This document shows, piece after piece, positions 1,331 through 37,167 of a stretch of DNA of 47,096 bases. Source of the stretch: a virus (taxonomy: Duplodnaviria; Heunggongvirae; Uroviricota; Caudoviricetes); IMG/VR virus record IMGVR_UViG_2802429246_000002; one strand, 5' to 3'. The position numbers were made by a program, and so were the translations under genes. The first letter of the stretch is position 1; the number at the start of each line of letters is the position of its first letter. The notes under the pieces were generated by a model that saw only the letters and a program-made list of their open reading frames with translations, was not told the origin of the DNA and ran no database searches.

Positions 1331-1488
1331 CCAAAATATGCTGAAGCCTCGTACGAATAGAAAACCTCAGCATTTAGTGTTCGGGTTTATTCCCACTAAA
1401 TTATTTACGACACACATAACCATTTGACTGATAACAACTTTCTGAAACCTGATTTTCACCGTACCGTTTTATATACCGTCACCGGAAA

Positions 1489-6691: not shown

Positions 6692-6708
6692 ATTACCTTT
6701 CAGGTAAT
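6692..6708. promoter_or_regulatory. 17-bp inverted repeat attacct-ttc-aggtaat (operator-like site A)
   Basis: Exact 7-bp arms, reverse complements of each other; member of a family of at least 13 sites. Confidence 0.6.
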
Positions 6709-6744: not shown

Positions 6745-6764
6745 TACTGTATAAATATACAGTT
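6745..6764. promoter_or_regulatory. Putative LexA (SOS) box TACTGTATAAATATACAGTT
   Basis: CTGT-N8-ACAG with AT-rich spacer, near-consensus, about 20 bp upstream of the ATG at 6784 with GGAG RBS in between. Confidence 0.7.
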
Positions 6765-6783: not shown

Positions 6784-7041
6784 ATGCAGCAGTATCACTA
6801 TCCACTGGAAGACGGATTTACCGAAAGGATTCACACGCCGGGAGGCGTCAGATCACTGGTGGAGGGATCGCACTTGATGAAATTACTCCGGGATCTCGAT
6901 AAGGATGGATTTAATGTCGATGGCCCACTTGCCGAACTGACTGCACTGATTAACTACGTCACCAGCTCACAGATGTCTATGCAGGATCTGCAAACACATC
7001 TCGACTATTGTGCCGAACAATTACGAAAACAAACCCGGTAA
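6784..7041 (+). CDS. Small antirepressor-like protein (homolog of the C-terminal domain of the antirepressor at 8190..8885)
   Basis: 85 aa from MQQYHYPLEDGF; aligns with C-terminus of the 8190 ORF (Y..PL..G...IH.P.GV..L.E.S.LM.LL..L..DG..V.G..AELT); LexA box upstream. Confidence 0.6.
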   Translation: MQQYHYPLEDGFTERIHTPGGVRSLVEGSHLMKLLRDLDKDGFNVDGPLAELTALINYVTSSQMSMQDLQTHLDYCAEQLRKQTR

Positions 7042-7063: not shown

Positions 7064-7792
7064 CTATCGTTTCGCTTTGTGCTCGTCCCAGCACGTTTTG
7101 CACCATGCCATTAAGCCGTCCGCATTTTGATTATTAGGGTAAAAGCTGGTTCGTTTTCTGCGGACATTACAAATTGGGCACCACTTCATATGACGTGTAT
7201 TCTTTGGGCCATCGAGACACCTTGCACACCACTTAGTCAATCCATCTGGATTTTTTGACGATTTCCTGAATTTTTCATATGGAAGGTTTATTCTGCATCG
7301 CAAGCACTGCTTGCTACCGCTTGAAACTCTGTTAGCTGATTCTTCTTTTGGCGGCGATACAGAAGATATTCTTGCTGGCTCTGATACTGCCTGAGGTGCT
7401 TTTTTAAATGACTGAGACGATATGTCATCACCAGGGAATCTTCCATGATATGCCGGACGCGTTGACACTCCAGGTGGAAGCTCAGCTGTAAACGGCTTTG
7501 GCTGAATCAGTTGCCTCTCTTTTGCTAACTCCTGCTGTTTATAATATGTCTGGATTACCGCACTATCATAAGCAGGAGGTGCGGAAATATTAGGCGCATT
7601 ACCTCCAGTTTTTTGAAACTGAGTAGAGGTGTGTTCTATCACCTGTGTACGATTAATCGTTATCTCCCCATCTTCGGTCTTTATCGTTTTGTTATGATTA
7701 ACGACCGTACGATCAGAGATCTTAGTCTTGTTCTGGTTGATAACGTAAATAATCACCGTAACCACACCAACAACTATCCAGAAAACTTCCAT
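7064..7792 (-). CDS. Membrane-anchored protein with Pro-rich linker and tandem C-terminal zinc-ribbon repeats
   Basis: N-terminal TM helix; two repeats of C-x2-C-x(13-17)-DGL-x2-WC-x2-C; GAGGAA RBS; operator-like site 20 bp upstream. Confidence 0.6.
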   Translation of the reverse strand: MEVFWIVVGVVTVIIYVINQNKTKISDRTVVNHNKTIKTEDGEITINRTQVIEHTSTQFQKTGGNAPNISAPPAYDSAVIQTYYKQQELAKERQLIQPKPFTAELPPGVSTRPAYHGRFPGDDISSQSFKKAPQAVSEPARISSVSPPKEESANRVSSGSKQCLRCRINLPYEKFRKSSKNPDGLTKWCARCLDGPKNTRHMKWCPICNVRRKRTSFYPNNQNADGLMAWCKTCWDEHKAKR

Positions 7793-7811: not shown

Positions 7812-7828
7812 ATTACCTTAAAGGTAAT
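7812..7828. promoter_or_regulatory. 17-bp inverted repeat attacct-taa-aggtaat (site B)
   Basis: Exact arms; about 20 bp upstream of the minus-strand gene starting at 7792. Confidence 0.6.
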
Positions 7829-7904
7829 ATCTTGCTTTCAGGTGATCAAGCATTAAACGCAACCAACCAAATACGGTTGATTTTAATATTTATTCGCGTT
7901 TATC

Positions 7905-7921
7905 ATTACCTTTGCGGTAAA
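7905..7921. promoter_or_regulatory. 17-bp inverted repeat attacct-ttg-cggtaaa (site B2)
   Basis: Same motif family with one arm mismatch. Confidence 0.5.
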
Positions 7922-8189
7922 TTTACATCGCACTCCTCTTGTGCCATAGTAATCGGGCACTGGCAAAATCCAGTGCCGGGATTGGCGTCCCGGATTACTA
8001 AAAGGCGCATTCACCGCGCAAGCGGTTTTTTTATGCGTATAGCACGGCCACATTCGTATTATGGTGGGCTGTGTGGGGGCACCGAAAGGTGCGCCGGGTC
8101 CTTTTAGCCGGTTACGCCAACCCTGCACAGTTCACCACCAACCGATTGGCGTCGGTAGTGGTGATTAACCAGACTAAAAGGTAACCACT

Positions 8190-8885
8190 ATGACAGCTAC
8201 AAAAAGCACGTCCATTTTTTCTTTCGAATCCCAAGCCGATATACGGGTAATCGTCATTAATGGTGAGCCATGGTTTATCGCTTCAGATGTTTGTCGGGCT
8301 ATAGGCATAGCAAACCATCGAGATGCTGTTCGAAAACTTGATGATGATGAGAAGGGCGTCGCTTCAACCGACACCCCTGGCGGTGAGCAAGAATCGATCA
8401 TTATCTCCGAGTCAGGCCTCTACACACTGATCCTCCGCTGCCGCGATGCGGTGACACCAGGCACTATCCCCTACCGCTTTCGTAAATGGGTTACAGGTGA
8501 GGTTCTTCCTCAGATCCGCCGCACCGGAAGTTACATTAAAAACTCGCTCCCGCAGGAAGAACGCATAAAGATGGTTGCCGACCAGGTTGCCAACGCCACG
8601 GCGTCAGCAGTAATGCAGGCGATGAAGATAGAGAACAAAACCTACAGCGCCCCGCTGAAGCCAGGATACCGCAGTCTGATTCACTCGCCGTCTGGTGTTC
8701 TCGGCCTGACGGAGAACTCACTGCTGATGAATCTGCTGAACCAGTTACAGGAAGACGGGCATGATGTATCGGGCGCGGCGGCGGAGCTGACCACCATGTT
8801 CTGCTACATCGTCGGTGTGAGTAAATGCCTGCGTGATATCCAGACGCATGCGGAGTACATCAACGACAAGGCTGGGTTCTTCTGA
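8190..8885 (+). CDS. Antirepressor (Bro-N/KilA-type N-terminal domain + Ant C-terminal domain)
   Basis: N-terminal IRVIVINGEPWFIASDVCRAIG...ISESGLYTLILRCRD resembles Bro-N; C-terminal domain homologous to the 6784..7041 ORF. Confidence 0.7.
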   Translation: MTATKSTSIFSFESQADIRVIVINGEPWFIASDVCRAIGIANHRDAVRKLDDDEKGVASTDTPGGEQESIIISESGLYTLILRCRDAVTPGTIPYRFRKWVTGEVLPQIRRTGSYIKNSLPQEERIKMVADQVANATASAVMQAMKIENKTYSAPLKPGYRSLIHSPSGVLGLTENSLLMNLLNQLQEDGHDVSGAAAELTTMFCYIVGVSKCLRDIQTHAEYINDKAGFF

Positions 8886-8992: not shown

Positions 8993-9202
8993 ATGGGATT
9001 TTGGTTCGCTCGTACAAAAACGAGGGATAATGCACCCAGCCCTCAGGCAAAAAATGCAGAAGTTCCGGCGTCAGCGCAGGTTAACAAGCGTGGTGGAGTA
9101 TATATCTCATCACAGCAAATTTCTGAGCTTCCTGAGGTTAAGGAGATGCGTCGTCTCGCTGCTGCAATTGTTAAACAGGATCTTGCCACTGTAAGGAAGT
9201 AG
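8993..9202 (+). CDS. Small soluble protein (69 aa), first gene of a two-gene cargo operon
   Basis: Strong RBS GAGGAGGAG; stop overlaps start of the downstream membrane protein gene (TAGTG); no recognizable domain. Confidence 0.55.
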   Translation: MGFWFARTKTRDNAPSPQAKNAEVPASAQVNKRGGVYISSQQISELPEVKEMRRLAAAIVKQDLATVRK

Positions 9203-10068
9203 TGTTGCTAGCTCTTCTAATTATCCCAATCCTGGTTAGCGGTTATATTATGATAACCGCTAACCAGTATCATTATTTCCGTTTATACCGACACGAAGGC
9301 CAGCTTCTTTATATGAAAGTAGCGGCACTAGGTACATATTGCCTTGTTGCATCAGTAATAATTGCAGCCGCTATAAAATATAAATGGCCTGATTTTCACC
9401 TAGTTCACGATATGGTGGAAACTTTTAATGTAACATCAAAACCAGAAACAGATAGAATTTACATGTGGCTGCTTCTTCTCTCAGCCACATCCATTTGCTT
9501 CTCTTTGTGTTATGTGTCTGTTGTGTGGGTGAAAGATTTTCTTCTTGGTTGTTTTTATAAACGTGATATTTACGAGCAAAAAACAGAGGCAATGAAGGCC
9601 AGAGTACTGCGAAAAACTTACTCGCAGGGTTCTTTAGACTTACTATTGCTTGATGCTATTGAATCGGATCCTAAACGACCAATGCTGATTACTTTATCAT
9701 CAAACAAAGTGTATGTTGGAATAATAAATGGTTCTGGTGAACCAACGGAAAATCAGGGTCCGCATCAGCACATATCTTTTGTTCCTTTAATGTCAGGATA
9801 CAGGAACAAAGAAAACTTATCTGTCACATTCACTAATGCTTATCCAGGAGAAATACAGGTCAAGCGGACTGCAGCAATAAGAGGAATTAGCAGAAAGAAA
9901 GTGCCAGGACTTGAGATCATGGTGTCTATTGACGAAATAAGTTATATATCATGGTTTGATTTTGAAGTATATAAAGCAACAAATAACAAAGTAGAATCCA
10001 GGGGGCACGTTATTCGTGTTACCAAAAATGGAAGAAATATATATCAAAGAAATAGCAAAAAAGAATAG
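9202..10068 (+). CDS. Integral membrane protein (3-4 N-terminal TM helices) with ~150 aa C-terminal soluble domain; unknown function
   Basis: 288 aa; GTG start overlapping upstream stop; AT-rich codon usage; followed by intrinsic terminator. Confidence 0.65.
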   Translation: MLLALLIIPILVSGYIMITANQYHYFRLYRHEGQLLYMKVAALGTYCLVASVIIAAAIKYKWPDFHLVHDMVETFNVTSKPETDRIYMWLLLLSATSICFSLCYVSVVWVKDFLLGCFYKRDIYEQKTEAMKARVLRKTYSQGSLDLLLLDAIESDPKRPMLITLSSNKVYVGIINGSGEPTENQGPHQHISFVPLMSGYRNKENLSVTFTNAYPGEIQVKRTAAIRGISRKKVPGLEIMVSIDEISYISWFDFEVYKATNNKVESRGHVIRVTKNGRNIYQRNSKKE

Positions 10069-10351: not shown

Positions 10352-11203
10352 TCACTGTGCAGTTTTCGCTGATCGATTTTCAGCTCTAAATTCAAGAACC
10401 GTTTCAATATTTCTTTCCTTCAGCATATCAATAACATTTTTATTCATTTGACTATCACTGGTTAATAACTGGTAAACGTTGCTTCTCTCTTTATCAGAGT
10501 TTTCTTTAACAGCTGCTTTGCATGCCAAATGCTTATTGAAATTTTCTACATCGCTAGTACAGGAATTTACGGCTGCTGATGAAATATCAGACGCTGAAGA
10601 AACACCATCATCCAAACGTTTTATAGCATTTTCTATACATGAGTTAAGGGAATAAACGACAACTGAGCGATACCCTTCAGACGCACACCATTCTAAATTT
10701 CTTGAAGGATCGAGTGGTTTTACTTCGCTGGATTGAATTAACTTGTCAAAAACTGACTTATATTCAATCTGTTTTTTATCTATAGCCCATACTTCAGTAG
10801 CTGATTTATAATTCCCCGTATGCCTATTAACATCAAATCCATGTTTTATAAGCAAATCTGCCCATGAAAGATTTATTGATTCATTGTTATGAGGCCATTT
10901 TCCTGTCAGAACCGCCCCCATAGACCCCATATATCCGCCATATGATGGTATAGCACCATGGCTCAGTAACTTCTCAGCAACCACAGGGCAATTAATTACA
11001 TAAGAGGCGTAAAGCCCATTCCATAAAGCCCCTCTATAGTAATCGCCACGATTAGGTTCTTTTAAGTCGATAGCCTTTGATAATTGTTCACACGTTTTGC
11101 ATGCATCAAAGTTATCCTTATTGCATTGCAATGAACTGGCAGCTGTAGGATTTACAGAGACTATTGAAAGCACTATGCCAAAAAACAAATTTATTTTTTT
11201 CAT
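10352..11203 (-). CDS. Secreted protein with possible ankyrin-like repeats (AT-rich cargo gene at the end of the ejection-protein operon)
   Basis: N-terminal signal peptide; segments VAEKLLSHGAIPS and WADLLIKHGFDVN loosely resemble ankyrin repeat cores; about 38% GC; starts 1 bp after the stop of the upstream gene. Confidence 0.5.
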   Translation of the reverse strand: MKKINLFFGIVLSIVSVNPTAASSLQCNKDNFDACKTCEQLSKAIDLKEPNRGDYYRGALWNGLYASYVINCPVVAEKLLSHGAIPSYGGYMGSMGAVLTGKWPHNNESINLSWADLLIKHGFDVNRHTGNYKSATEVWAIDKKQIEYKSVFDKLIQSSEVKPLDPSRNLEWCASEGYRSVVVYSLNSCIENAIKRLDDGVSSASDISSAAVNSCTSDVENFNKHLACKAAVKENSDKERSNVYQLLTSDSQMNKNVIDMLKERNIETVLEFRAENRSAKTAQ

Positions 11204-18380: not shown

Positions 18381-20851
18381 CAGAATCCCCCAACAGTAAG
18401 GCGAGGAATAACGGCAAGAACAGACAGCGGCAACGGGTCAAGCTGACGGATTTTTACACGTCCGTTTTTGCCCCAGTTACTGTCCAGTTTCACTTCTACT
18501 TTTCCGGTAGCATCATCAACAGGATCATCGTAGAACTCGAATTCACGCTGTGGATATTCGTACCATTTACCGCCAGGCGTAGTCGCCCAGATGCCGCGGC
18601 TGGCATTCACAACCAGAGTAACGGAGGGGATCACCTGTTTTTTGTCCAGCAGCGTTTCCTGTCCGTTAATGTTGATATCCAGTGTTTCGAATTCAGCAGT
18701 TATTGGCAGACCGATGTGCACTACAGCCCCCGGAGATTCCAGCGTGACGGCACCTCCGGAAACAACTTTCTGTGGCTCAACATTCGCATCAGAAAGAATG
18801 TTTACGGTCTGTCCTTCAAGATGAGACAGGCCTCCAAATGTCCGGCGCGCCATCTGCCAGTTCGTGGTGGCCGCATTCCTGAGGGATGGCGGGAGGTTCC
18901 TGTTGGCACGAACCACTACAGCGGTATTGCTGGTTACAGAAATAATGTCGCAACGTAATTCTTTTGACACTTCATCGCCAGTATCAGGATCAGTTCCAGC
19001 ATAAGGGAACTGTAGTTGCGCACCGACATCACTACTGGTGAAGTACGCACCACCAGAAACACTGATTGTATATTCCGCGCGGTAATCCCATTCACCAGAA
19101 CCACCAGTGATGGTCATCGTTCTGTCAGACGTATTTCTTCCATCATAGCTAAGGCCAGAATCAACAAAGAAAGCGTCTTCATCGCTGGTAAATAAACGGC
19201 TGGACAGTCTCTCGATGTATCTCACTGCTTGCCCGTTAACGGTTCGGTTAACGACGAAATACACCGCATCTTCATTGCCTTCGCTGATACTGCATGTGCT
19301 TTCATATTTTCCGGTACTGGACTGTGGTGCCCATGCAAAAACCTGCTGATCACGCAAATAGGTCATCACCAGTAATTTACCGTCATCACGAATGCAGAAG
19401 GCGCTGGAGTAAGGGACAATCGAGAAGCACCAGTCAACAATGCTGTGCTTCTGAAAAAGATGATTGGCAAGGATGGTCAGGTCGTTCCCCTGATAGCCGT
19501 CAACATCGAATGAGTAGGCCAGATCACGGACAACGCTGCCTTTCTCCTGGACGAACAAAGCAATATTCGCCACGGCAATTGGCGGGACGTTGCTTGAGCC
19601 ATTTGATCCCTGAGAGCTGAATGCAAATGATGATGGGGTTAACACTTTGTTCTGGTCGCCGGTGATGACGTACTCACCTCCGGAAGTCAGCGCCACCAGC
19701 GAACCAACATCAATCAGGTGACGGATCTCATTAACCTGACGCCCGGCATAGGTGTAGATAATTCTGTCGTCATCCTGCGTAGGATTGCTTTTGCCAAAAT
19801 CCTTATAATCCCCAGTACGGCTGGCCCAGATAGTCTGAGGGAACGCAGTCGATGCGGCGAAGTAAAGACGTTGTTGATAATAAACAACAGTGCCAGGATA
19901 ACCATTAACACTGTTCCAGGCATATTTAGCCCATTTATAGCTGGCATTATCCTCGCCAACGACCTGCGAAGGGATATAGGAAATCACCTCAGCAGTTGCA
20001 GTAGTGCCATTTACAGCAGTTATACGGGCAATGCCAAAACCACTGTGCAGATACTCCCACTCAATGCCAGTATCATCATCACCGGATCCGCCCCAGCCAT
20101 CCCATGATGTGCCTTCTGTATGCGAAGGGCGCAAAGTGCCTGTTTTGCCTGCTGTAACGGCGCGATAGTAGTTACTGTCTGCACGGCGAATATCACCAAT
20201 CGACGTACTCTTACTGGTTTCCCATACCGGCACTGAATCCACTGCAGGCTGTTCCAGATAGAACAATTTGCCTACCTGCTCCGCGCCAAAAATAGAGGCG
20301 CTTGCCGTTAACGTAATTGTCCCGGTGCTGGCGCTGGCATAAACCGTCACTGACTCGTCAATATTGATATCTTCAAATGGCCCGTTCTTCGTTACCACAT
20401 CAACCAGTTGCCAGTTGTCATGAGCATAGCGGCGCAACTCTTTCGGCGGGTATGCCGGATGAACCAGCGTAAGCACGTCGGCGCTTTGCGTGAATTTAAT
20501 TCGGAACAGATCGGCTTCAGTATATGGCGTGGCAATTTCATAAATAACATTGCTGCTGTTCAGCACCAACGCACCATCTTTGATAACGCGCATGTACTGG
20601 TGTCCGAACTCCAGAGCATAGGTCTGAACAGTCGAGAACTGGAACGGGATCAGGCGGCATTTCCGATTTGGGTATTTGGCGGCACCGACAAAACGCGTAC
20701 CCGGTCGATTCTCAACGCCGCCATACTGCCGCACGATAAAGTTATCGCACTTGCGCAAAGCCACCTGGTACTTCGCCATGTCGATACGACCGTACAACGA
20801 CGGTCCAATCTCACCACCGGCAAAGCTGGGCTGGATCCAACTGATAGCCAT
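18380..20851 (-). CDS. Tail tubular protein B-like (podovirus nozzle protein)
   Basis: 823 aa; N-terminus MAISWIQPSFAGGEIGPSLYGRID typical of podoviral tail tube B-type proteins; follows a tail tubular A-like gene. Confidence 0.6.
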   Translation of the reverse strand: MAISWIQPSFAGGEIGPSLYGRIDMAKYQVALRKCDNFIVRQYGGVENRPGTRFVGAAKYPNRKCRLIPFQFSTVQTYALEFGHQYMRVIKDGALVLNSSNVIYEIATPYTEADLFRIKFTQSADVLTLVHPAYPPKELRRYAHDNWQLVDVVTKNGPFEDINIDESVTVYASASTGTITLTASASIFGAEQVGKLFYLEQPAVDSVPVWETSKSTSIGDIRRADSNYYRAVTAGKTGTLRPSHTEGTSWDGWGGSGDDDTGIEWEYLHSGFGIARITAVNGTTATAEVISYIPSQVVGEDNASYKWAKYAWNSVNGYPGTVVYYQQRLYFAASTAFPQTIWASRTGDYKDFGKSNPTQDDDRIIYTYAGRQVNEIRHLIDVGSLVALTSGGEYVITGDQNKVLTPSSFAFSSQGSNGSSNVPPIAVANIALFVQEKGSVVRDLAYSFDVDGYQGNDLTILANHLFQKHSIVDWCFSIVPYSSAFCIRDDGKLLVMTYLRDQQVFAWAPQSSTGKYESTCSISEGNEDAVYFVVNRTVNGQAVRYIERLSSRLFTSDEDAFFVDSGLSYDGRNTSDRTMTITGGSGEWDYRAEYTISVSGGAYFTSSDVGAQLQFPYAGTDPDTGDEVSKELRCDIISVTSNTAVVVRANRNLPPSLRNAATTNWQMARRTFGGLSHLEGQTVNILSDANVEPQKVVSGGAVTLESPGAVVHIGLPITAEFETLDININGQETLLDKKQVIPSVTLVVNASRGIWATTPGGKWYEYPQREFEFYDDPVDDATGKVEVKLDSNWGKNGRVKIRQLDPLPLSVLAVIPRLTVGGF

Positions 20852-26984: not shown

Positions 26985-27061
26985 GTGGCATTAGCTCAGC
27001 TGGACAGAGCAACCGCCTTCTAAGCGGTTGGTCGCAGGTTCGAATCCTGCATGCCACGCCA
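26985..27061 (+). tRNA. tRNA-Arg (anticodon UCU), phage-encoded
   Basis: Manual fold: acceptor GTGGCAT/ATGCCAC, D-stem GCTC/GAGC, anticodon stem ACCGC/GCGGT with loop CTTCTAA, T-stem GCAGG/CCTGC with loop TTCGAAT, discriminator G, encoded CCA; sequence differs from E. coli argU. Confidence 0.85.
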
Positions 27062-27263: not shown

Positions 27264-27280
27264 GTTACCTTGAAGGTAAG
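27264..27280. promoter_or_regulatory. 17-bp inverted repeat gttacct-tga-aggtaag (site E)
   Basis: Core TTACCT-N3-AGGTAA intact; 32 bp upstream of the ATG at 27312. Confidence 0.5.
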
Positions 27281-33207: not shown

Positions 33208-33552
33208 TCAGAACTCTTCGATGTTCCAGCCATCACCCGCTTTCTTTGTCTTAACCGTTACCCCGATGATGCGAAACGGGTACTGGTCTGCTGCGACTTT
33301 GGTTTTCACCCTGGCGTCGTCGGTCCAGAAACCTTTCACTTCGTGTAGTTCCATCTCGCCGGTGGCGAGCATCACAGCAAAATCGGGCGTATAGAACGTG
33401 TTGTCAGCTAACCGCAGCTTGATACCCTCGAATCGATACCAGGCGATTTCCCCTGCACGTTTACGCAGCTCAAGGTGCTGGCAATACGCAGATTCTGTTT
33501 TGTTCATCTGGCCTGTTTTGAGTCGACCAAGAGCCTGTATCTGTTTTCTCAT
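33208..33552 (-). CDS. Putative PD-(D/E)xK nuclease (possible Holliday-junction resolvase-like)
   Basis: YTPDFAVML...ELHEVKG matches a PD...E.K motif arrangement; 114 aa; downstream of replication genes. Confidence 0.45.
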   Translation of the reverse strand: MRKQIQALGRLKTGQMNKTESAYCQHLELRKRAGEIAWYRFEGIKLRLADNTFYTPDFAVMLATGEMELHEVKGFWTDDARVKTKVAADQYPFRIIGVTVKTKKAGDGWNIEEF

Positions 33553-33669
33553 GATTTACCCCTGAGGTAATTAAAAACCACATAAGACACGAAATCAATA
33601 GAGTTTAGAATATTTTGTTACCAAACAGGTAATTATCAAGACGTAAAAAAATGCGCTATCGCGCTGGTA

Positions 33670-34446
33670 TTACTTGATAAATCCTGCCGCCTTTCCCCGC
33701 CTGTATTCCTCCATCAGCCACTGCGCCGGTGTTATTCCCCCAAGGGTGGCGGCGTTAGGCATGCACCCGAAACTTCGCCCTGGTGGATGGTAAACGTCTC
33801 TCCCTGTGTCCGGAGGTGTACTCATGGGCTCTGGCTTTGCCTGTATGCTGATCACCGGATCGGGTATCTGCTGTCCGGAAGCCACCTTTTTCGCCCAATC
33901 ATCGAGCAGCCTGCGCGCGTGTTTCTCAACCTCAATCTCGCTAAGCTGGCGCTGATACATTGCACGGCGGGTATCACATACGACCCAGTACATAACCGGA
34001 TGCCGCCACGGGAATCTTTCGGGACCACCAGGATATAAACTTTTTTCCTTGCTGTACCGGTGAAACTCCGCCATCACATCGTCAATGGTGACGCCAAGAA
34101 CCATCTTGCTGTCTTTACACCACTTGATAAATTGCCCTGGCGACGGCCAGAACGGAGATTCACTGGCGCGGGCGTGGCGCATACCAGCGTTAACCTGTTC
34201 CATTGTAGTGATCCCATTCTCCAGAAACGCAAGCATCCATTGCTTACGGAATTCATTAAGTTTGTTCTGCTCCCTTATGGTCGAAACGCTTGCAGGAAAT
34301 GCAGCCTGTAACTGGACAAATAGTTCATTGAAAATTCTAGCGACCTGCTCCTTTTTGCCATTGCTGTCACGCCGCTCTTCATGCACAGCAACACCATGCT
34401 CACGTAAGCGATCGTACTCATTGAGAAGTTCTGGAGTTGATTTCAT
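33670..34446 (-). CDS. Replication protein P-like (DnaB helicase loader)
   Basis: Block ENGITTMEQVNAGMRHARASESPFWPSPGQFIKWC closely matches lambda P (ENGITTMEQVNAGMR...PFLPSPGQF..WC) as recalled. Confidence 0.75.
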   Translation of the reverse strand: MKSTPELLNEYDRLREHGVAVHEERRDSNGKKEQVARIFNELFVQLQAAFPASVSTIREQNKLNEFRKQWMLAFLENGITTMEQVNAGMRHARASESPFWPSPGQFIKWCKDSKMVLGVTIDDVMAEFHRYSKEKSLYPGGPERFPWRHPVMYWVVCDTRRAMYQRQLSEIEVEKHARRLLDDWAKKVASGQQIPDPVISIQAKPEPMSTPPDTGRDVYHPPGRSFGCMPNAATLGGITPAQWLMEEYRRGKAAGFIK

Positions 34447-35248
34447 CCCACACCCCTTCTATCCAGTCAGTGTTATTCCAGTCAAGCTCATCGCTTTTCC
34501 CGACGTTTTTTGATTTTCCCCTGATATGATTTACGTGCCTGGCGAATTTTTGTTCCCACTGAACCTGCGTGAACACTTTGCCCTCAGCCATCCAGTAATC
34601 CCGGAATGCAGCAAGTTCAGCAGGTGTAAATTCCGGTTCCGGCAGGGCCGTTCCCCACAGCGCAGCACGCCGTCGAAAATCCGGCGACGGATGCCAGCCA
34701 TCGGTCATCGGAAATTTCCCAATAGGTTCACTCAGGCCATCCAGAAATGCAGGTTCTGCCACCTGCAACGGCGTACCGTTCGCTTCACTGGTCGGATCAC
34801 TCTCGCGCGCGTGTGCTATGTGTGGGGTTTTATATATATCTTCCTCTTCCTCTTCCTCTGGTAACTCTTTTTGTAACGCTGTTGGCGTTACTTTTTGCGT
34901 TACTCGTTTTCGATGCTCTGCCACTCTTCTATTCGTAAGTGCACGTTTTTTCGATGATTCTCCATTGTGTCGCTCAAAGTTTGGAAGAATTAGTTTGCCG
35001 TCATGATAAGCAAGCCATCCGACGCTAATGAGGGCGTCAGCAAATCCTGTAATAAAAGCGAGTCTATCAAGTACTCCTTTTGTAACGCTGCCAGCGTTAC
35101 CGTCTATTGTTTGCTGGTCAGCCCATGCCCATATACGAACCAGCTTTCCAAGAACAGCATCTGGATCAATACCCAGAATTTCTGCTATCTGAAAAATTTC
35201 AGGTTTATCAGGAGTGATAACTTCAACCTTAATCCAGCTGCTTGCCAT
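34418..35248 (-). CDS. Replication initiator / replisome organizer (lambda O-like, DnaT-like C-terminal domain)
   Basis: N-terminal replisome-organizer-like region, acidic linker EEEEEED, C-terminal WHPSPDFRRRAALWG...AFRDYW pattern; directly upstream of P-like gene. Confidence 0.6.
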   Translation of the reverse strand: MASSWIKVEVITPDKPEIFQIAEILGIDPDAVLGKLVRIWAWADQQTIDGNAGSVTKGVLDRLAFITGFADALISVGWLAYHDGKLILPNFERHNGESSKKRALTNRRVAEHRKRVTQKVTPTALQKELPEEEEEEDIYKTPHIAHARESDPTSEANGTPLQVAEPAFLDGLSEPIGKFPMTDGWHPSPDFRRRAALWGTALPEPEFTPAELAAFRDYWMAEGKVFTQVQWEQKFARHVNHIRGKSKNVGKSDELDWNNTDWIEGVWDEINSRTSQ

Positions 35249-35441
35249 AGGTTTCCCCTCTTGCACTCTTTAGTGCACAAGCAAATTCATTACGATGGCG
35301 GTTGGCGCTATTCATTGCACATTCAACACATGTTCCGTTCAGAACATACCTTTCAGAGAGATGGCCGTGACGGCACCGCTTTCCTGTGAAATAGCGATTT
35401 AACCCGGCTTTTGCGGCCTCCATTCTGGTTACTATCTTCAA
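35229..35441 (-). CDS. Small Cys/His-rich protein (cII-position; unknown function)
   Basis: 70 aa; RCRHGHLSERYVLNGTCVEC; between cro-like gene and replication genes. Confidence 0.4.
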   Translation of the reverse strand: MKIVTRMEAAKAGLNRYFTGKRCRHGHLSERYVLNGTCVECAMNSANRHRNEFACALKSARGETYGKQLD

Positions 35442-35589: not shown

Positions 35590-35820
35590 TCATGAGTAGA
35601 AGAAGTATGCCAGTTCTGCTTTTGAGCGCAGCCATTGTCTTGTTTTACAGGCTTTAAAAAGCCCATTCATCAATACCTTACCTGGCATTTTGCGCTTACC
35701 TGTTAAGTGAGTCTGGATATAGTGACTCGTCGTTCCGGCTTCCTGTGCGAAGGCTTCACGCTCATCCGGAGTAAGTGCAAGCCAGTGCTTTTTGAAATCG
35801 AAATGTCCGTTATCGCTCAT
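35590..35820 (-). CDS. Cro/YdaS-like HTH regulator
   Basis: 76 aa; putative HTH AFAQEAGTTSHYIQTHLTGKRKMP; divergent from repressor gene; first gene of replication-side operon. Confidence 0.6.
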   Translation of the reverse strand: MSDNGHFDFKKHWLALTPDEREAFAQEAGTTSHYIQTHLTGKRKMPGKVLMNGLFKACKTRQWLRSKAELAYFFYS

Positions 35821-35886
35821 AGCTATTGCCTGATATTTATTTCAGATAATAAATATTCACCCATAAGGTAACAAAAATCAAGGATA

Positions 35887-35920
35887 GTTACCTATGAGGT
35901 GCATTTACCTGTTGGGTAAT
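35887..35920. promoter_or_regulatory. Tandem operator-like sites gttacct-atg-aggtgca and tttacct-gtt-gggtaat in the divergent immunity intergenic region
   Basis: Two adjacent 17-bp sites of the aTTACCT-N3-AGGTAAt family between the cro-like start (35820) and repressor start (35975); extra half-site aggtaac at 35866. Confidence 0.6.
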
Positions 35921-35974
35921 ATTGCTTTAAATTGAATCATCTACTGATTCATATATGAGGCGATTTTCCAGAAA

Positions 35975-36559
35975 ATGAAAAGTATCCAGGACGTCCGCAG
36001 GCAAAATCTCAACGACTTGATCGACCGTGAATTCAATGGTGTTCAGACGCGGATGGCAGAAAAACTTGGAACTCAGGCAAATCTGGTAAACCGCTGGGCT
36101 CTTGGCAAGAAGGTTATCGGCGACCAGGTTGCGCGAAAAATTGAAGCTGCCGCCAATAAACCCCGTAACTGGCTTGATATCGATCGCTCGCTTTCTCAGG
36201 AAGGTTTTCAGCCTGTCGGCCCAAGCGACATTGGTCAGCTGGCGGCTCACAACCTGGAACGCTGGATGAGCGAAAGCCGCGACCTTTCAACACAGGGAAA
36301 ACTTCACCGCGCATCCGGCGTCGCCCAGGTAACAATCAGCCGCCTGTTAAACAATGAGGTCAGCGTTTCCATTTCCACCCTGGAGAATGTTGCATCCGCA
36401 TTCGGGCGTCACGGCTATGAATTACTGATTCACCCGCACGACCCTGCGACCATCAACTATGACCGCTCGCGCTACGCATTGTTACCCGAAACCGAGAAAG
36501 CAAAGATCGAAAGTTACATTGAATTTGTCATCAACCAGAACGAAAAAAATAAACAATAA
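35975..36559 (+). CDS. Prophage repressor (CI-like), two HTH-like regions, no obvious LexA/S24-type autocleavage domain
   Basis: 194 aa; N-terminal XRE-type HTH (VQTRMAEKLGTQANLVNRW) and second HTH-like segment (GVAQVTISRLLNNEVSVSISTLENVA); divergent to cro-like gene. Confidence 0.65.
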   Translation: MKSIQDVRRQNLNDLIDREFNGVQTRMAEKLGTQANLVNRWALGKKVIGDQVARKIEAAANKPRNWLDIDRSLSQEGFQPVGPSDIGQLAAHNLERWMSESRDLSTQGKLHRASGVAQVTISRLLNNEVSVSISTLENVASAFGRHGYELLIHPHDPATINYDRSRYALLPETEKAKIESYIEFVINQNEKNKQ

Positions 36560-36615
36560 AACTATAGTTTTCAGCAAGTAAGCCGCCTCATGGCGGCTTT
36601 TTTATTGCCATCAAG

Positions 36616-36632
36616 ATTACCTTATGGGTAAT
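36616..36632. promoter_or_regulatory. 17-bp inverted repeat attacct-tat-gggtaat (site H; OL-like position)
   Basis: Downstream of repressor gene, upstream of the recombination-side operon. Confidence 0.55.
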
Positions 36633-36677
36633 TTTTTTAGCTCATATCTATTGACATCAAACCAAATACGCATAATC

Positions 36678-36694
36678 ATTACCCCAACGGTAAC
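36678..36694. promoter_or_regulatory. Inverted repeat attacc-ccaac-ggtaac (site H2)
   Basis: 6-bp arms ATTACC/GGTAAC with 5-bp spacer; 19 bp upstream of ATG at 36713. Confidence 0.45.
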
Positions 36695-36712: not shown

Positions 36713-36865
36713 ATGCAGTGGAAAATCATCAACGGTTGGTACTGCGTTACTGCATGCGGATTCATGAGCTGGAAGTTCCGCACCTTACAGGAAGGCATTA
36801 AGTGGGCTTTCGTCAGCAAAGAAGCTCGCGATGTGGCCAACGATAACGAGATATGGGAGGGCTGA
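36713..36865 (+). CDS. Small hypothetical protein (50 aa), first gene of the recombination-side early operon
   Basis: ATG with GAGGTAAC RBS; ORF MQWKIINGWYCVTACGFMSWKF... ends just before the next start; below the ORF-track cutoff. Confidence 0.3.
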   Translation: MQWKIINGWYCVTACGFMSWKFRTLQEGIKWAFVSKEARDVANDNEIWEG

Positions 36866-36867
36866 TA

Positions 36868-37167
36868 ATGAACGTTAATCAGCAGAAAAATCTTCAAAAA
36901 ATCATGCTGGCATTCGACAAGGACTACCGCCTGTCAGAACAGCTATATGACCGACAAGTTGAACTGATTGAGAGCATCCGACTTCATCAACTGTCCTCAA
37001 CTTTCGACGTTGTAACAGGCAAAGGCGTTCGTCAGGAAGTACTGGAGGCTGCTAAAGACAGCCCTGAGTTCGAAGAACTGATGGATGCCTACCGGCGCGA
37101 GGCAATGGCAATTATCGCCCGCTGGGATCTGGCGGATCAGCTTGATGGACAGAGGGACGCGGCATGA
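36868..37167 (+). CDS. Hypothetical early protein
   Basis: 99 aa from MNVNQQKN with GGGAGGG RBS; stop overlaps exonuclease start. Confidence 0.45.
   Translation: MNVNQQKNLQKIMLAFDKDYRLSEQLYDRQVELIESIRLHQLSSTFDVVTGKGVRQEVLEAAKDSPEFEELMDAYRREAMAIIARWDLADQLDGQRDAA

What the first reader, a model, noticed from the sequence alone, without database searches (positions are those of the whole stretch)
35975..36559. Repressor with two HTH-like regions and no evident self-cleavage domain
The CI-positioned protein has an N-terminal XRE-type HTH and a second HTH-like segment, but I see none of the Ser/Lys dyad motifs of LexA/lambda CI-type S24 peptidase domains. A double-HTH architecture could fit the 17-bp inverted-repeat operators, and it makes induction dependent on the antirepressors.
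Basis: inference. Interest (0 to 1): 0.5.

Follow-up and report, generated by a model that had tools for sequence, protein, structure and literature searches.

The report
Known antirepressor-controlled phage repressor (phiV10/SPC32H type)
This gene is the already described lysogeny repressor of a phiV10-like (epsilon15-like) E. coli prophage: it has no self-cleaving domain, is most likely switched off by small antirepressor proteins, and its second helix-turn-helix-like region corresponds to a dimerisation module in the solved homologue, so the finding is correct but ordinary.

Summary
ORF 35975-36559 (+, 194 aa) sits divergent from a cro-like gene. It has an N-terminal Cro/YdaS-type HTH and a second HTH_3 match at aa 106-147. 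It has no Peptidase_S24 hit, no GxS[ML] motif and no Ala-Gly or Cys-Gly site.

It is not new. The protein is 100% identical to phiV10 gp40, which GenBank already annotates with "two helix-turn-helix motifs". It is also 100% identical to ORF21 of phage vB_EcoP_ZX5, which was shown by overexpression to shut off lytic genes. It aligns end to end (42% identity; profile E 5e-65) with Salmonella phage SPC32H Rep, whose structure is solved alone and bound to its antirepressor Ant (PDB 5D4Z, 5D50).

In SPC32H Rep the N-terminal domain binds DNA, the middle domain dimerises, and the C-terminal domain tetramerises and binds Ant.

Antirepressor-dependent induction is supported. The window encodes an Ant 88% identical to SPC32H Ant behind a perfect, conserved LexA box. 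It also encodes a second, Bro-N-Ant fusion antirepressor behind isrK and C4 RNAs. Twelve perfect TTACC-N5-GGTAA operators occur across the prophage.

Verdict: already known; low interest.

The parts
35975..36559 (+). rep: prophage lysogeny repressor, 194 aa. It is 100% identical to phiV10 gp40 and vB_EcoP_ZX5 ORF21, and 42% identical to SPC32H Rep.
35975..36184 (+). Rep aa 1-70: N-terminal HTH DNA-binding domain. Helix 'NLVNRW' is invariant or nearly invariant in the family. This domain is 54% identical to SPC32H Rep.
   Evidence: domain role from PMC9986798
36185..36238 (+). Rep aa 71-88: variable linker, 22% identical to SPC32H Rep, with indels in the family alignment.
36239..36430 (+). Rep aa ~89-152: second HTH-like segment (Pfam HTH_3 at aa 106-147). 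It corresponds to the middle dimerisation domain of SPC32H Rep. The boundaries are approximate.
   Evidence: (5d4z_A covers aa 89-190)
36431..36556 (+). Rep aa ~153-194: C-terminal segment corresponding to the tetramerisation and Ant-binding domain (CAD / TetDloop) of SPC32H Rep. It is 43% identical. The boundary is approximate.
36580..36609 (+). Intrinsic terminator after rep.
   Evidence: annotated in phiV10
35857..35919 (.). Operator cluster between rep and the cro-like gene, with three TTACC-N5-GGTAA sites: 35857-35871 (1 mismatch), 35888-35902 (2 mismatches) and 35905-35919 (perfect). SPC32H has the same three-site layout.
35846..35874 (-). Sigma-70-like promoter (TTGTTA-17-TATTAT) pointing at the cro-like gene. 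It is overlapped by the operator at 35857-35871.
   Evidence: consensus match only
35590..35820 (-). cro-like gene, 76 aa, phrog_35. It is 76% identical to SPC32H_042.
36617..36693 (+). Two perfect operators (36617-36631 and 36679-36693, 62 bp apart) bracket a TTGACA-17-AATCAT promoter at 36651-36679. That promoter drives the recombination/early operon.
6784..7041 (+). ant: 85-aa antirepressor, 88% identical to SPC32H Ant (PDB 5D50 chain E).
6747..6762 (.). Perfect LexA box CTGTATAAATATACAG, ending 21 bp upstream of the ant start codon. It aligns with the SPC32H LexA box.
6693..6707 (.). Perfect Rep-type operator upstream of the ant promoter region. It is conserved in SPC32H at 20013-20027.
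8190..8885 (+). Second antirepressor, 231 aa: a Bro-N domain followed by a C-terminal Ant-like domain (aa 150-226, E 1e-13 to 5D50 chain E). It is the counterpart of the Bro-N 'anti-repressor' ORF4 of vB_EcoP_ZX5; that correspondence rests on the annotation under a DNA match and was not aligned separately.
   Evidence: PMC9782041
7957..8142 (+). isrK-like sRNA (7957-8032) and C4 antisense RNA (8057-8142) directly upstream of the Bro-N-Ant gene.
7813..7920 (.). Two perfect Rep-type operators (7813-7827 and 7906-7920) around the promoter-like site upstream of isrK, C4 and the Bro-N-Ant gene.

Best explanation
The ORF encodes the lysogeny repressor (Rep) of a phiV10-like Uetakevirus prophage integrated between yfgI and guaA of E. 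coli. It belongs to the SPC32H Rep family.

Inferred by homology to the solved SPC32H Rep: the N-terminal HTH domains pair up on the palindromic operators ATTACC-N5-GGTAAT. The second HTH-like region is a protein-protein dimerisation module. The short C-terminal beta-alpha module makes tetramers and is the docking site for the antirepressor.

Shown by sequence: Rep-type operators overlap or bracket the cro-side promoter, the early-left promoter, both antirepressor promoters, and the int, replication, terminase and late-operon upstream regions.

Shown by sequence: the protein has no S24 peptidase module. Inferred from that and from SPC32H: RecA does not cleave it. Instead, DNA damage cleaves LexA, which frees the LexA box in front of ant. 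The 85-aa Ant is then made, binds the Rep C-terminal domains, breaks the DNA-binding tetramer into dimers and releases the operators.

A second antirepressor carries the same Ant module fused to a Bro-N domain. It sits behind isrK and C4 antisense RNAs and probably gives a second, RNA-gated route to the same end.
For: - Identity: 100% aa identity to phiV10 gp40, vB_EcoP_ZX5 ORF21 and more than ten other phage records. DNA is 97-99% identical to phiV10, TL-2011b and HEMP4.
- Homology to a solved structure: phmmer E 4e-42 over aa 1-190 to 5d50_A, and E 4e-20 over aa 89-190 to 5d4z_A. The family profile gives E 5e-65. The 5d50_A sequence equals the SPC32H rep translation.
- Domain roles and the Ant mechanism in SPC32H: PMC9986798, PMC9638917, bioRxiv 10.1101/2025.11.27.690993.
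- Direct experiment on the identical protein: ZX5 ORF21 overexpression cut endolysin and holin transcripts by 99.99% and 99.97% and abolished free phage. Overexpression of the Bro-N anti-repressor lowered lysogeny (PMC9782041).
- No S24.
- Ant: 88% identical to SPC32H Ant, E 4e-47 to 5d50_E.
- LexA box: perfect at 6747-6762 and aligned with the SPC32H box. The constitutively lytic sibling SPC32N differs from SPC32H by a G-to-T change inside that box.
- Operators: 12 perfect sites against 0.05 expected. SPC32H has the same motif at syntenic places.
- Reviews state that this phage group is induced by LexA-controlled antirepressors (PMC7380047; PMC9437464).
Against: - Nothing was measured on this protein for oligomeric state, DNA binding, Ant binding or resistance to RecA. 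All of these are transferred from a homologue that is only 42% identical overall, and 34% in the middle domain.
- I could not obtain a usable structure model.
- The two primary SPC32H papers (PMC4983836, PMC3807360) are not held, so their content comes from citing papers and my own memory.
- The ZX5 study tested the Bro-N antirepressor, not the short Ant.
- No convincing promoter for rep itself was found.
Confidence: 0.85

Rival explanations
1. One reading: both HTH-like regions of one Rep chain contact DNA, and the double-HTH architecture is what reads the 17-bp inverted repeats.
For: The second region is a significant HTH_3 match at E 1.2e-9. Q118 and R123, in the position of a recognition helix, are invariant among close family members. 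No DNA-bound structure of any family member was available to me.
Against: - In SPC32H Rep the DNA-binding domain is N-terminal and the middle domain is described as a dimerisation domain.
- The fragment equivalent to aa 89-190 was crystallised separately (PDB 5D4Z); from memory of PMC4983836, which I could not read, it is a homotetramer without DNA.
- The operators are perfect palindromes with half-sites one helical turn apart, which fits a symmetric pair of identical HTHs.
- No conserved bases lie beyond the 17-mer.
- SPC32H and this phage use the same TTACC half-site. The N-terminal recognition helix NLVNRW is identical between them, whereas the middle-domain 'recognition helix' shares about 4 of 13 residues and Q118 is Pro in SPC32H.
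Confidence: 0.07
2. Rep is inactivated by proteolysis after all: either cryptic RecA-dependent autocleavage or a dedicated ImmA-type (COG2856) metalloprotease.
For: Only the general fact that most textbook phage repressors are cleaved. Nothing in the sequence supports it.
Against: - There is no S24 domain, no Ser/Lys dyad motif context and no AG or CG site.
- Pfam scans of five neighbouring ORFs either side of rep showed no protease; nearer ORFs such as 33208-35266 were not scanned, and the phiV10 annotation of the same region lists none.
- From memory of the abstract of Kim & Ryu 2013 (PMC3807360, which I could not read), SPC32H Rep is not cleaved during SOS. Reviews agree on LexA-controlled antirepression.
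Confidence: 0.03
3. The working inducer in this E. coli phage is mainly the Bro-N-Ant fusion protein under isrK/C4 RNA control. The short LexA-controlled Ant would be redundant or serve cross-talk with other prophages.
For: The only antirepressor of this phage type tested experimentally is the Bro-N protein, ZX5 ORF4. It carries the same Ant module (E 1e-13 to 5d50_E; phrog_450). It has its own Rep operators and RNA regulators. ZX5 lysogens are reported to induce spontaneously at high titre.
Against: The short Ant is far closer to the crystallised Rep partner (88% against 38%). It is the one with a perfect, positionally conserved LexA box. No LexA box lies upstream of the Bro-N gene; the nearest one-mismatch site, at 8069, lies inside the C4 RNA and is GC-rich. 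The two routes are not mutually exclusive.
Confidence: 0.2

Closest known systems
Rep of Salmonella phage SPC32H, with its antirepressor Ant (PDB 5D4Z, 5D50; Kim & Ryu 2013, J Virol, PMC3807360; Kim et al. 2016, PNAS, PMC4983836)
   Same: - Full-length homologue: 42% identity, E 4e-42, profile E 5e-65.
- Same genus (Uetakevirus).
- Same gene position, divergent from cro.
- Same TTACC-N5-GGTAA operators at syntenic sites.
- No S24 domain.
- Cognate Ant is 88% identical, with a conserved LexA box and Rep operator upstream.
   Different: - Rep is one of the most diverged proteins between the two phages (42%, against 76% for Cro and 88% for Ant).
- The middle domain is only 34% identical.
- This phage has an extra Bro-N-Ant antirepressor with isrK and C4 RNAs, which SPC32H lacks.
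- Nothing biochemical has been done on this allele.
phiV10 gp40 and vB_EcoP_ZX5 ORF21 repressor
   Same: Identical protein (100%). phiV10 gp40 is annotated 'putative transcriptional repressor; two helix-turn-helix motifs'. ZX5 ORF21 was shown by overexpression to block lytic transcription. ZX5 has the same guaA integration site.
   Different: None for the protein. The ZX5 authors took the C-terminal HTH (TreR-like hit) to be the DNA-binding part, which conflicts with the SPC32H structure.
Lambda CI, P22 C2 and LexA (S24 autocleaving repressors)
   Same: Same position and role in the genetic switch. An N-terminal HTH binds palindromic operators on both sides of the repressor gene. The response is to SOS.
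   Different: No S24 peptidase domain, dyad or cleavage site. The SOS signal arrives indirectly through LexA and Ant. The working form is a tetramer built on a different C-terminal fold.
Coliphage 186 CI/Tum and the Gifsy/Fels-2 repressor-antirepressor pairs
   Same: Non-cleavable repressor inactivated by a small antirepressor that LexA represses.
   Different: I found no homology of this Rep or Ant to a solved 186 or Gifsy protein: the PDB sequence searches returned only 5D50/5D4Z as strong hits. From memory of Kim & Ryu 2013, the SPC32H-type Ant was described as a structurally distinct class.
P1/P7 immI (c4 antisense RNA-icd-ant) and Gifsy-1 IsrK-AnrP
   Same: The second antirepressor gene is preceded by Rfam C4 and isrK RNAs.
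   Different: It is attached here to a podovirus whose main repressor is of the SPC32H type. The C-terminal module of this antirepressor is the SPC32H Ant fold rather than that of P1 Ant.
Rco of Bacillus plasmid pLS20 (TetDloop repressors)
   Same: N-terminal HTH DNA-binding domain plus a C-terminal p53-like tetramerisation module, and an antirepressor partner.
   Different: Rco lacks the middle dimerisation domain. There is no detectable sequence similarity outside the DNA-binding domain.

Membership tests
SPC32H-type Rep (PDB 5D50/5D4Z) | End-to-end sequence homology to SPC32H Rep | tested here: met
   phmmer E 4e-42 over aa 1-190 of 194. Family profile E 5e-65 over positions 1-192. tblastn gives 41.8% identity to KC911856 rep.
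SPC32H-type Rep (PDB 5D50/5D4Z) | Three-part architecture: N-terminal HTH DNA-binding domain, middle dimerisation domain, C-terminal tetramerisation/Ant-binding domain | tested here: inconclusive
   All three parts align without large gaps. The separately crystallised fragment 5d4z_A maps to aa 89-190.
SPC32H-type Rep (PDB 5D50/5D4Z) | Cognate small antirepressor Ant encoded in the same phage | tested here: met
   ORF 6784-7041 is 88% identical to SPC32H Ant, with E 4e-47 to 5d50_E.
SPC32H-type Rep (PDB 5D50/5D4Z) | ant under LexA control (SOS box at the ant promoter) | tested here: met
   Perfect CTGT-N8-ACAG at 6747-6762, aligned with the SPC32H box. The SPC32N mutation lies in that box. LexA binding itself was not tested.
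SPC32H-type Rep (PDB 5D50/5D4Z) | Same operator type at syntenic promoters | tested here: met
   There are 12 perfect TTACC-N5-GGTAA sites in the window, and 11 perfect plus 7 one-mismatch sites in SPC32H. They lie at corresponding places: rep-cro, downstream of rep, ant, int, replication, terS and the late operon.
SPC32H-type Rep (PDB 5D50/5D4Z) | Binds DNA as a tetramer; Ant tetramer splits it into dimers; not cleaved on SOS | not testable with these tools
   Known for SPC32H only.
LexA / lambda CI S24 autocleaving repressors | Peptidase_S24 C-terminal domain with a Ser/Lys dyad | tested here: not met
   No PF00717 match at E<=1. No GxS[ML] motif. No S24 domain in any of 86 homologues.
LexA / lambda CI S24 autocleaving repressors | Ala-Gly or Cys-Gly scissile bond in the hinge | tested here: not met
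   There is no AG or CG dipeptide in the protein.
ImmR/ImmA (COG2856 protease-controlled XRE repressors) | Adjacent Zn-metalloprotease gene | tested here: not met
   Five neighbouring ORFs either side (35229-35441, 35590-35820, 36713-36865, 36853-37167, 37164-37985) give no protease family. Not every nearby ORF was scanned, but the phiV10 annotation of the region lists none.
Tandem-HTH DNA binders (both HTHs of one chain read DNA) | The second HTH contacts DNA, and the operators contain a second, distinct recognition element | tested here: not met
   The operators are simple perfect palindromes with no conserved flanks. In the homologue the equivalent domain is a dimerisation domain. DNA contact itself is not testable here.

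The most novel reading that the evidence does not exclude
This prophage may feed two differently gated antirepressors into one non-cleavable tetrameric repressor. One is the LexA-gated 85-aa Ant. The other is a Bro-N-Ant fusion gated by isrK/C4 antisense RNA and carrying the same Rep-binding module (phrog_450). SPC32H has only the first.

Ant is 88% conserved while Rep is only 42% conserved. The Ant-docking surface of Rep must therefore be under strong constraint, and Ant could trans-induce heterologous Uetakevirus prophages across E. coli and Salmonella. A weaker variant is that the middle HTH-like domain keeps some DNA contact.
Probability: 0.35. Interest if true: 0.35.

Novelty: already known. 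Interest (0 to 1): 0.1.

Why it matters
It matters little as a discovery. The protein is identical to an annotated and partly tested phage repressor, and a homologue has crystal structures with its antirepressor.

The practical value is in annotation. The short Ant belongs to phrog_450, which PHROGs lists as "unknown function", and it is unnamed in several of the matching phage records; it should be called an SOS-controlled antirepressor. Prophages of this type, which sit next to guaA in E. coli including O157 and O103 strains, should be expected to respond to SOS without repressor cleavage.

Tried and rejected
- **Structure prediction.** The single-sequence run gave an unusable all-helix model (pLDDT 44.9, pTM 0.22), so no fold search was run.
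- **Primary literature.** The SPC32H papers (PMC4983836, PMC3807360) and the epsilon15 genome paper (PMC2698709) are not held. I used citing papers and checked one remembered fact independently: the SPC32N LexA-box mutation.
- **NCBIfam.** Only sub-threshold HTH hits appeared (RstR, HigA, TreR), so there is no specific model for this family.
- **Promoter of rep.** The consensus scan found none on the + strand in 35821-35974. Hand-picked candidates were weak and not conserved with SPC32H, so I do not name one.
- **LexA box for the second antirepressor.** None was found. The one-mismatch hits are at chance level: 18 observed against 16.6 expected.
- **Second att site.** No copy of the 17-bp core appears within 3 mismatches. 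By eye, a 13/17 copy lies at about 1383-1399.
- **Rejected readings.** Peptidase S24 and ImmA-type control (see the membership tests), and a toxin-antitoxin reading of the YdaS and HigA hits, which are generic HTH similarities below cut-off.

Full report
**1. What is at the coordinates**

The ORF list gives one long ORF at exactly 35975-36559 on the + strand: 194 aa, ATG start. A hairpin plus T-run terminator follows at 36580-36599.

The ORF is transcribed divergently from a 76-aa ORF at 35590-35820 (-), which matches PHROG 35, 'transcriptional repressor', i.e. Cro-like. On the other side lies an operon with RecE-like (DUF3799) and RecT genes, an AlpA-like gene and an integrase. The ORF therefore occupies the CI position of a temperate phage.

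**2. Check of the observation**

- Pfam finds HTH_3 (E 1.2e-9, two stretches, best at aa 106-147) and HTH_26 (aa 104-144).
- In the N-terminal part, Pfam finds the Cro-like YdaS_toxin HTH (aa 21-61, E 3e-4), which is below Pfam's own cut-off.
- PHROG repressor families match aa 1-75 on their own, and phrog_8 matches the whole length.
- No Peptidase_S24 match appears even at E<=1.
- A regex scan finds no GxS[ML] motif and not a single Ala-Gly or Cys-Gly dipeptide.
- None of the 86 homologues found in the large protein database carries an S24 domain. All are about 194 aa and come from Enterobacteriaceae.

The observation of two HTH-like regions and no self-cleavage domain is confirmed.

**3. What it is**

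*The element.* The DNA around the gene is 97-99% identical to phiV10, TL-2011b, HEMP4, vB_EcoP_ZX5 and related E. coli podoviruses of the genus Uetakevirus (epsilon15-like). The window holds a whole prophage of this type between host genes:
- yfgH- and yfgI-like genes on the left (glycine-zipper lipoprotein and DUF5384), and guaA on the right.
- The published 17-bp att core is perfect at 41909-41925, at the 3' end of guaA.
- A 13/17 copy lies at about 1383-1399.

*Identical proteins already described.* The protein is 100% identical to phiV10 gp40, ZX5 ORF21 and more than ten other records.
- The GenBank note on phiV10 gp40 reads 'putative transcriptional repressor; two helix-turn-helix motifs (PF01381); similar to putative repressor epsilon15p38'.
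- The ZX5 paper overexpressed this very protein. It reports a 99.99% drop in endolysin transcripts, a 99.97% drop in holin transcripts, and no free phage.
- Overexpression of the Bro-N 'anti-repressor' ORF4 in the same study lowered the prophage titre from 10^9 to 10^6 (PMC9782041).

*Solved homologue.*
- A sequence search of the PDB gives 5d50_A 'Repressor' (E 4e-42, aa 1-190) and 5d4z_A (E 4e-20, aa 89-190).
- A profile built from 32 family members raises the 5d50_A match to E 5e-65.
- The 5d50_A sequence is identical to the translation of the gene annotated rep in Salmonella phage SPC32H (KC911856).
- Entry 5D50 also contains an 'Anti-repressor protein' chain.

*Domain roles in SPC32H Rep.* I could not open the two primary SPC32H papers, because they are not held. 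Papers that cite them give the following:
- SPC32H Rep has a DNA-binding domain at the N-terminus.
- A dimerisation domain (MDD) lies in the middle.
- A C-terminal tetramerisation domain (CAD, 'TetDloop') also binds the antirepressor Ant (PMC9986798).
- Rep binds DNA as a tetramer, and the dimer binds only weakly.
- The N-terminal pairs that sit on a palindrome come from different dimers.
- Ant acts by imposing a non-functional conformation rather than by occluding the DNA-binding domain (bioRxiv 10.1101/2025.11.27.690993).

Our second HTH_3 match (aa 106-147) lies inside the stretch that aligns with the separately crystallised fragment Rep(92-198). It therefore corresponds to the MDD.

**4. 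The second half of the system is present in the window**

*Short Ant.*
- tblastn with SPC32H Ant finds ORF 6784-7041 (+, 85 aa) at 88% identity, with E 4e-47 to 5d50_E.
- A perfect LexA box, CTGTATAAATATACAG, lies at 6747-6762. It is one of only three perfect CTGT-N8-ACAG sites in 47 kb and the only AT-rich one.
- A perfect Rep-type operator lies at 6693-6707.
- The whole upstream region aligns with that of SPC32H ant, including the operator, the LexA box and the Shine-Dalgarno sequence.
- From memory, Kim & Ryu 2013 reported that Rep is not cleaved on SOS, that LexA represses ant, and that the lytic sibling SPC32N carries a point mutation in the LexA site. I checked the last point: over the 601-bp ant region compared, SPC32H and SPC32N differ at two positions, and one of them is G-to-T inside that LexA box, changing CTGT to CTTT.
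- Reviews agree that this phage group is induced by LexA-controlled antirepression (PMC7380047; PMC9437464).

*Second antirepressor.*
- ORF 8190-8885 (+, 231 aa) has a Bro-N domain (E 2.3e-21).
- Its C-terminal part (aa 150-226) matches SPC32H Ant at 38% identity, with E 1e-13 to 5d50_E. It matches the same PHROG family as the short Ant, phrog_450.
- Directly upstream, Rfam finds an isrK-type sRNA (7957-8032, 77.9 bits) and a C4 antisense RNA (8057-8142, 77.7 bits).
- Two perfect Rep-type operators lie at 7813 and 7906.
- This resembles the P1/P7 immI and Gifsy-1 IsrK antirepressor arrangements (my own knowledge). SPC32H has no such gene.

**5. Operators**

- TTACC-N5-GGTAA occurs 12 times perfectly, against 0.05 expected from base composition. 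With up to 2 mismatches there are 44 hits against 13.8 +/- 3.6 in shuffles.
- The sites lie in the following places:
  - the rep-cro spacer (35857, 35888, 35905);
  - downstream of rep, around a TTGACA-17-AATCAT promoter (36617, 36679);
  - the two antirepressor promoters;
  - upstream of int (41761, one mismatch);
  - between the replication and DUF1064 genes (33556, 33618);
  - upstream of terS (29984, 30002);
  - near the tRNA and the late operon (26648, 27265).
- SPC32H has the same motif at the corresponding places. It has the same three-site rep-cro layout with 17 bp and 30-31 bp spacings. It also has the same recurrent 62-bp pairs. A 62-bp spacing is about six helical turns, which would suit one tetramer bridging two sites. 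This is inference.
- Apart from a preference for A before and T after the core, the flanks are not conserved.

**6. Why the double-HTH reading fails**

- A perfect palindrome with half-sites one turn apart calls for two identical reading heads related by a dyad, which means one HTH from each of two chains.
- The two phages use the same half-site, and their N-terminal recognition helices are identical (NLVNRW; N36, R40 and W41 are invariant in the family).
- The 'recognition helix' of the middle domain differs between them (VAQVTISRLLNNE against IGPATVNRIMKAE), and that domain is only 34% identical, against 54% for the N-terminal domain.
- In the homologue, this domain is described as a dimerisation domain.

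**7. Most likely mechanism, with status of each step**

| Step | Status |
|---|---|
| Rep is the repressor | Shown by experiment on the identical ZX5 protein |
| No S24 module | Shown from sequence |
| N-terminal HTH pairs read the 17-bp palindromes; middle domain dimerises; C-terminal module tetramerises and docks Ant | Inferred from a 42%-identical solved homologue |
| LexA represses ant; SOS leads to Ant, which disassembles the Rep tetramer and derepresses | LexA box and Ant shown in sequence; function inferred from SPC32H |
| The Bro-N-Ant protein under isrK/C4 control gives a second input | Gene and RNAs shown; antirepressor effect shown for ZX5 ORF4; regulation inferred |

**8. Novelty**

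Already known. The identical protein is annotated and has been functionally tested, and the family has crystal structures and a published mechanism. I rate interest at 0.1.

Two matters remain mildly open. The first is the interplay of the two antirepressors. The second is the contrast between an 88%-conserved Ant and a 42%-conserved Rep: Rep is among the most diverged proteins between this prophage and SPC32H, whereas Cro is 76% identical.

**9. Dead ends**

- No rep promoter could be named.
- NCBIfam has no specific model for this family.
- No LexA box was found for the second antirepressor.

Noticed in passing
window 7957-8885: Rfam isrK sRNA (7957-8032) and C4 antisense RNA (8057-8142) lie directly upstream of a 231-aa Bro-N protein. 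The C-terminal 80 aa of that protein are an SPC32H-Ant-like module (38% identity; phrog_450). This looks like a P1 immI / Gifsy-1 IsrK-style RNA-gated antirepressor cassette inside an epsilon15-like podovirus. SPC32H lacks it.
   Followed up: partly
window 6693, 7813, 7906, 8952, 26648, 27265, 30002, 33556, 33618, 35905, 36617, 36679 (15-mers): Twelve perfect TTACC-N5-GGTAA palindromes occur against 0.05 expected. They are spread over nearly every promoter region of the prophage: ant genes, int, replication, terminase, late operon and both sides of rep. The repressor regulon is therefore genome-wide rather than confined to the immunity region. Pairs 62 bp apart recur here (33556/33618, 36617/36679) and in SPC32H.
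   Followed up: partly
window 35975-36559 compared with L002 (SPC32H): Rep is one of the most diverged proteins between this prophage and SPC32H (42%). Its neighbours Cro (76%) and gp40 (79%), its partner Ant (88%) and the operator half-sites are all conserved. This suggests allele replacement or fast divergence of Rep under a constraint to keep both the DNA specificity and the Ant-docking surface.
   Followed up: partly
window 6784-7041: The short Ant matches phrog_450 and phrog_15539, both labelled 'unknown function' in PHROGs. It is listed as a hypothetical protein in several of the matching phage records, even though its SPC32H orthologue is a crystallised antirepressor. This is an annotation gap.
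   Followed up: yes
window 1383-1399 and 41909-41925: The prophage lies between yfgI-like and guaA genes. The published 17-bp att core is perfect at the guaA end but only 13/17 at the other end (GTTTATTCCCACTAAAT). The attL core may therefore be degenerate, which could affect excision.
   Followed up: partly
window 37164-38923: RecE-like (DUF3799, 273 aa) and RecT (313 aa) are two ORFs overlapping by ATGA. In phiV10, the same stretch is annotated as a single 'recET fusion' of 1761 bp. This is either a frameshift difference or an annotation artefact in one of the records.
   Followed up: no
window 7064-7792 (-), 9202-10068 (+), 10352-11203 (-): This is a cargo region between ant and the structural genes. 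It holds a 242-aa protein with an N-terminal hydrophobic segment and endonuclease-VII/Lar-like Cys-rich repeats (phrog_6762). It also holds a 288-aa putative membrane protein and a 283-aa protein that starts with a hydrophobic, signal-like segment; neither has a Pfam match. These may be moron or superinfection-exclusion genes.
   Followed up: no
window 26985-27061: A phage-borne tRNA-Arg (anticodon TCT) lies next to a perfect Rep-type operator at 27265. SPC32H carries a tRNA-Arg at the corresponding place.
   Followed up: yes
PMC9782041 (ZX5 paper) compared with window 35975-36559: The ZX5 authors assign DNA binding to the C-terminal TreR-like HTH of the identical repressor. They also describe the antirepressor as competing for the repressor. 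The SPC32H structure assigns DNA binding to the N-terminal domain, so the literature on this exact protein contains a probable mis-assignment.
   Followed up: partly
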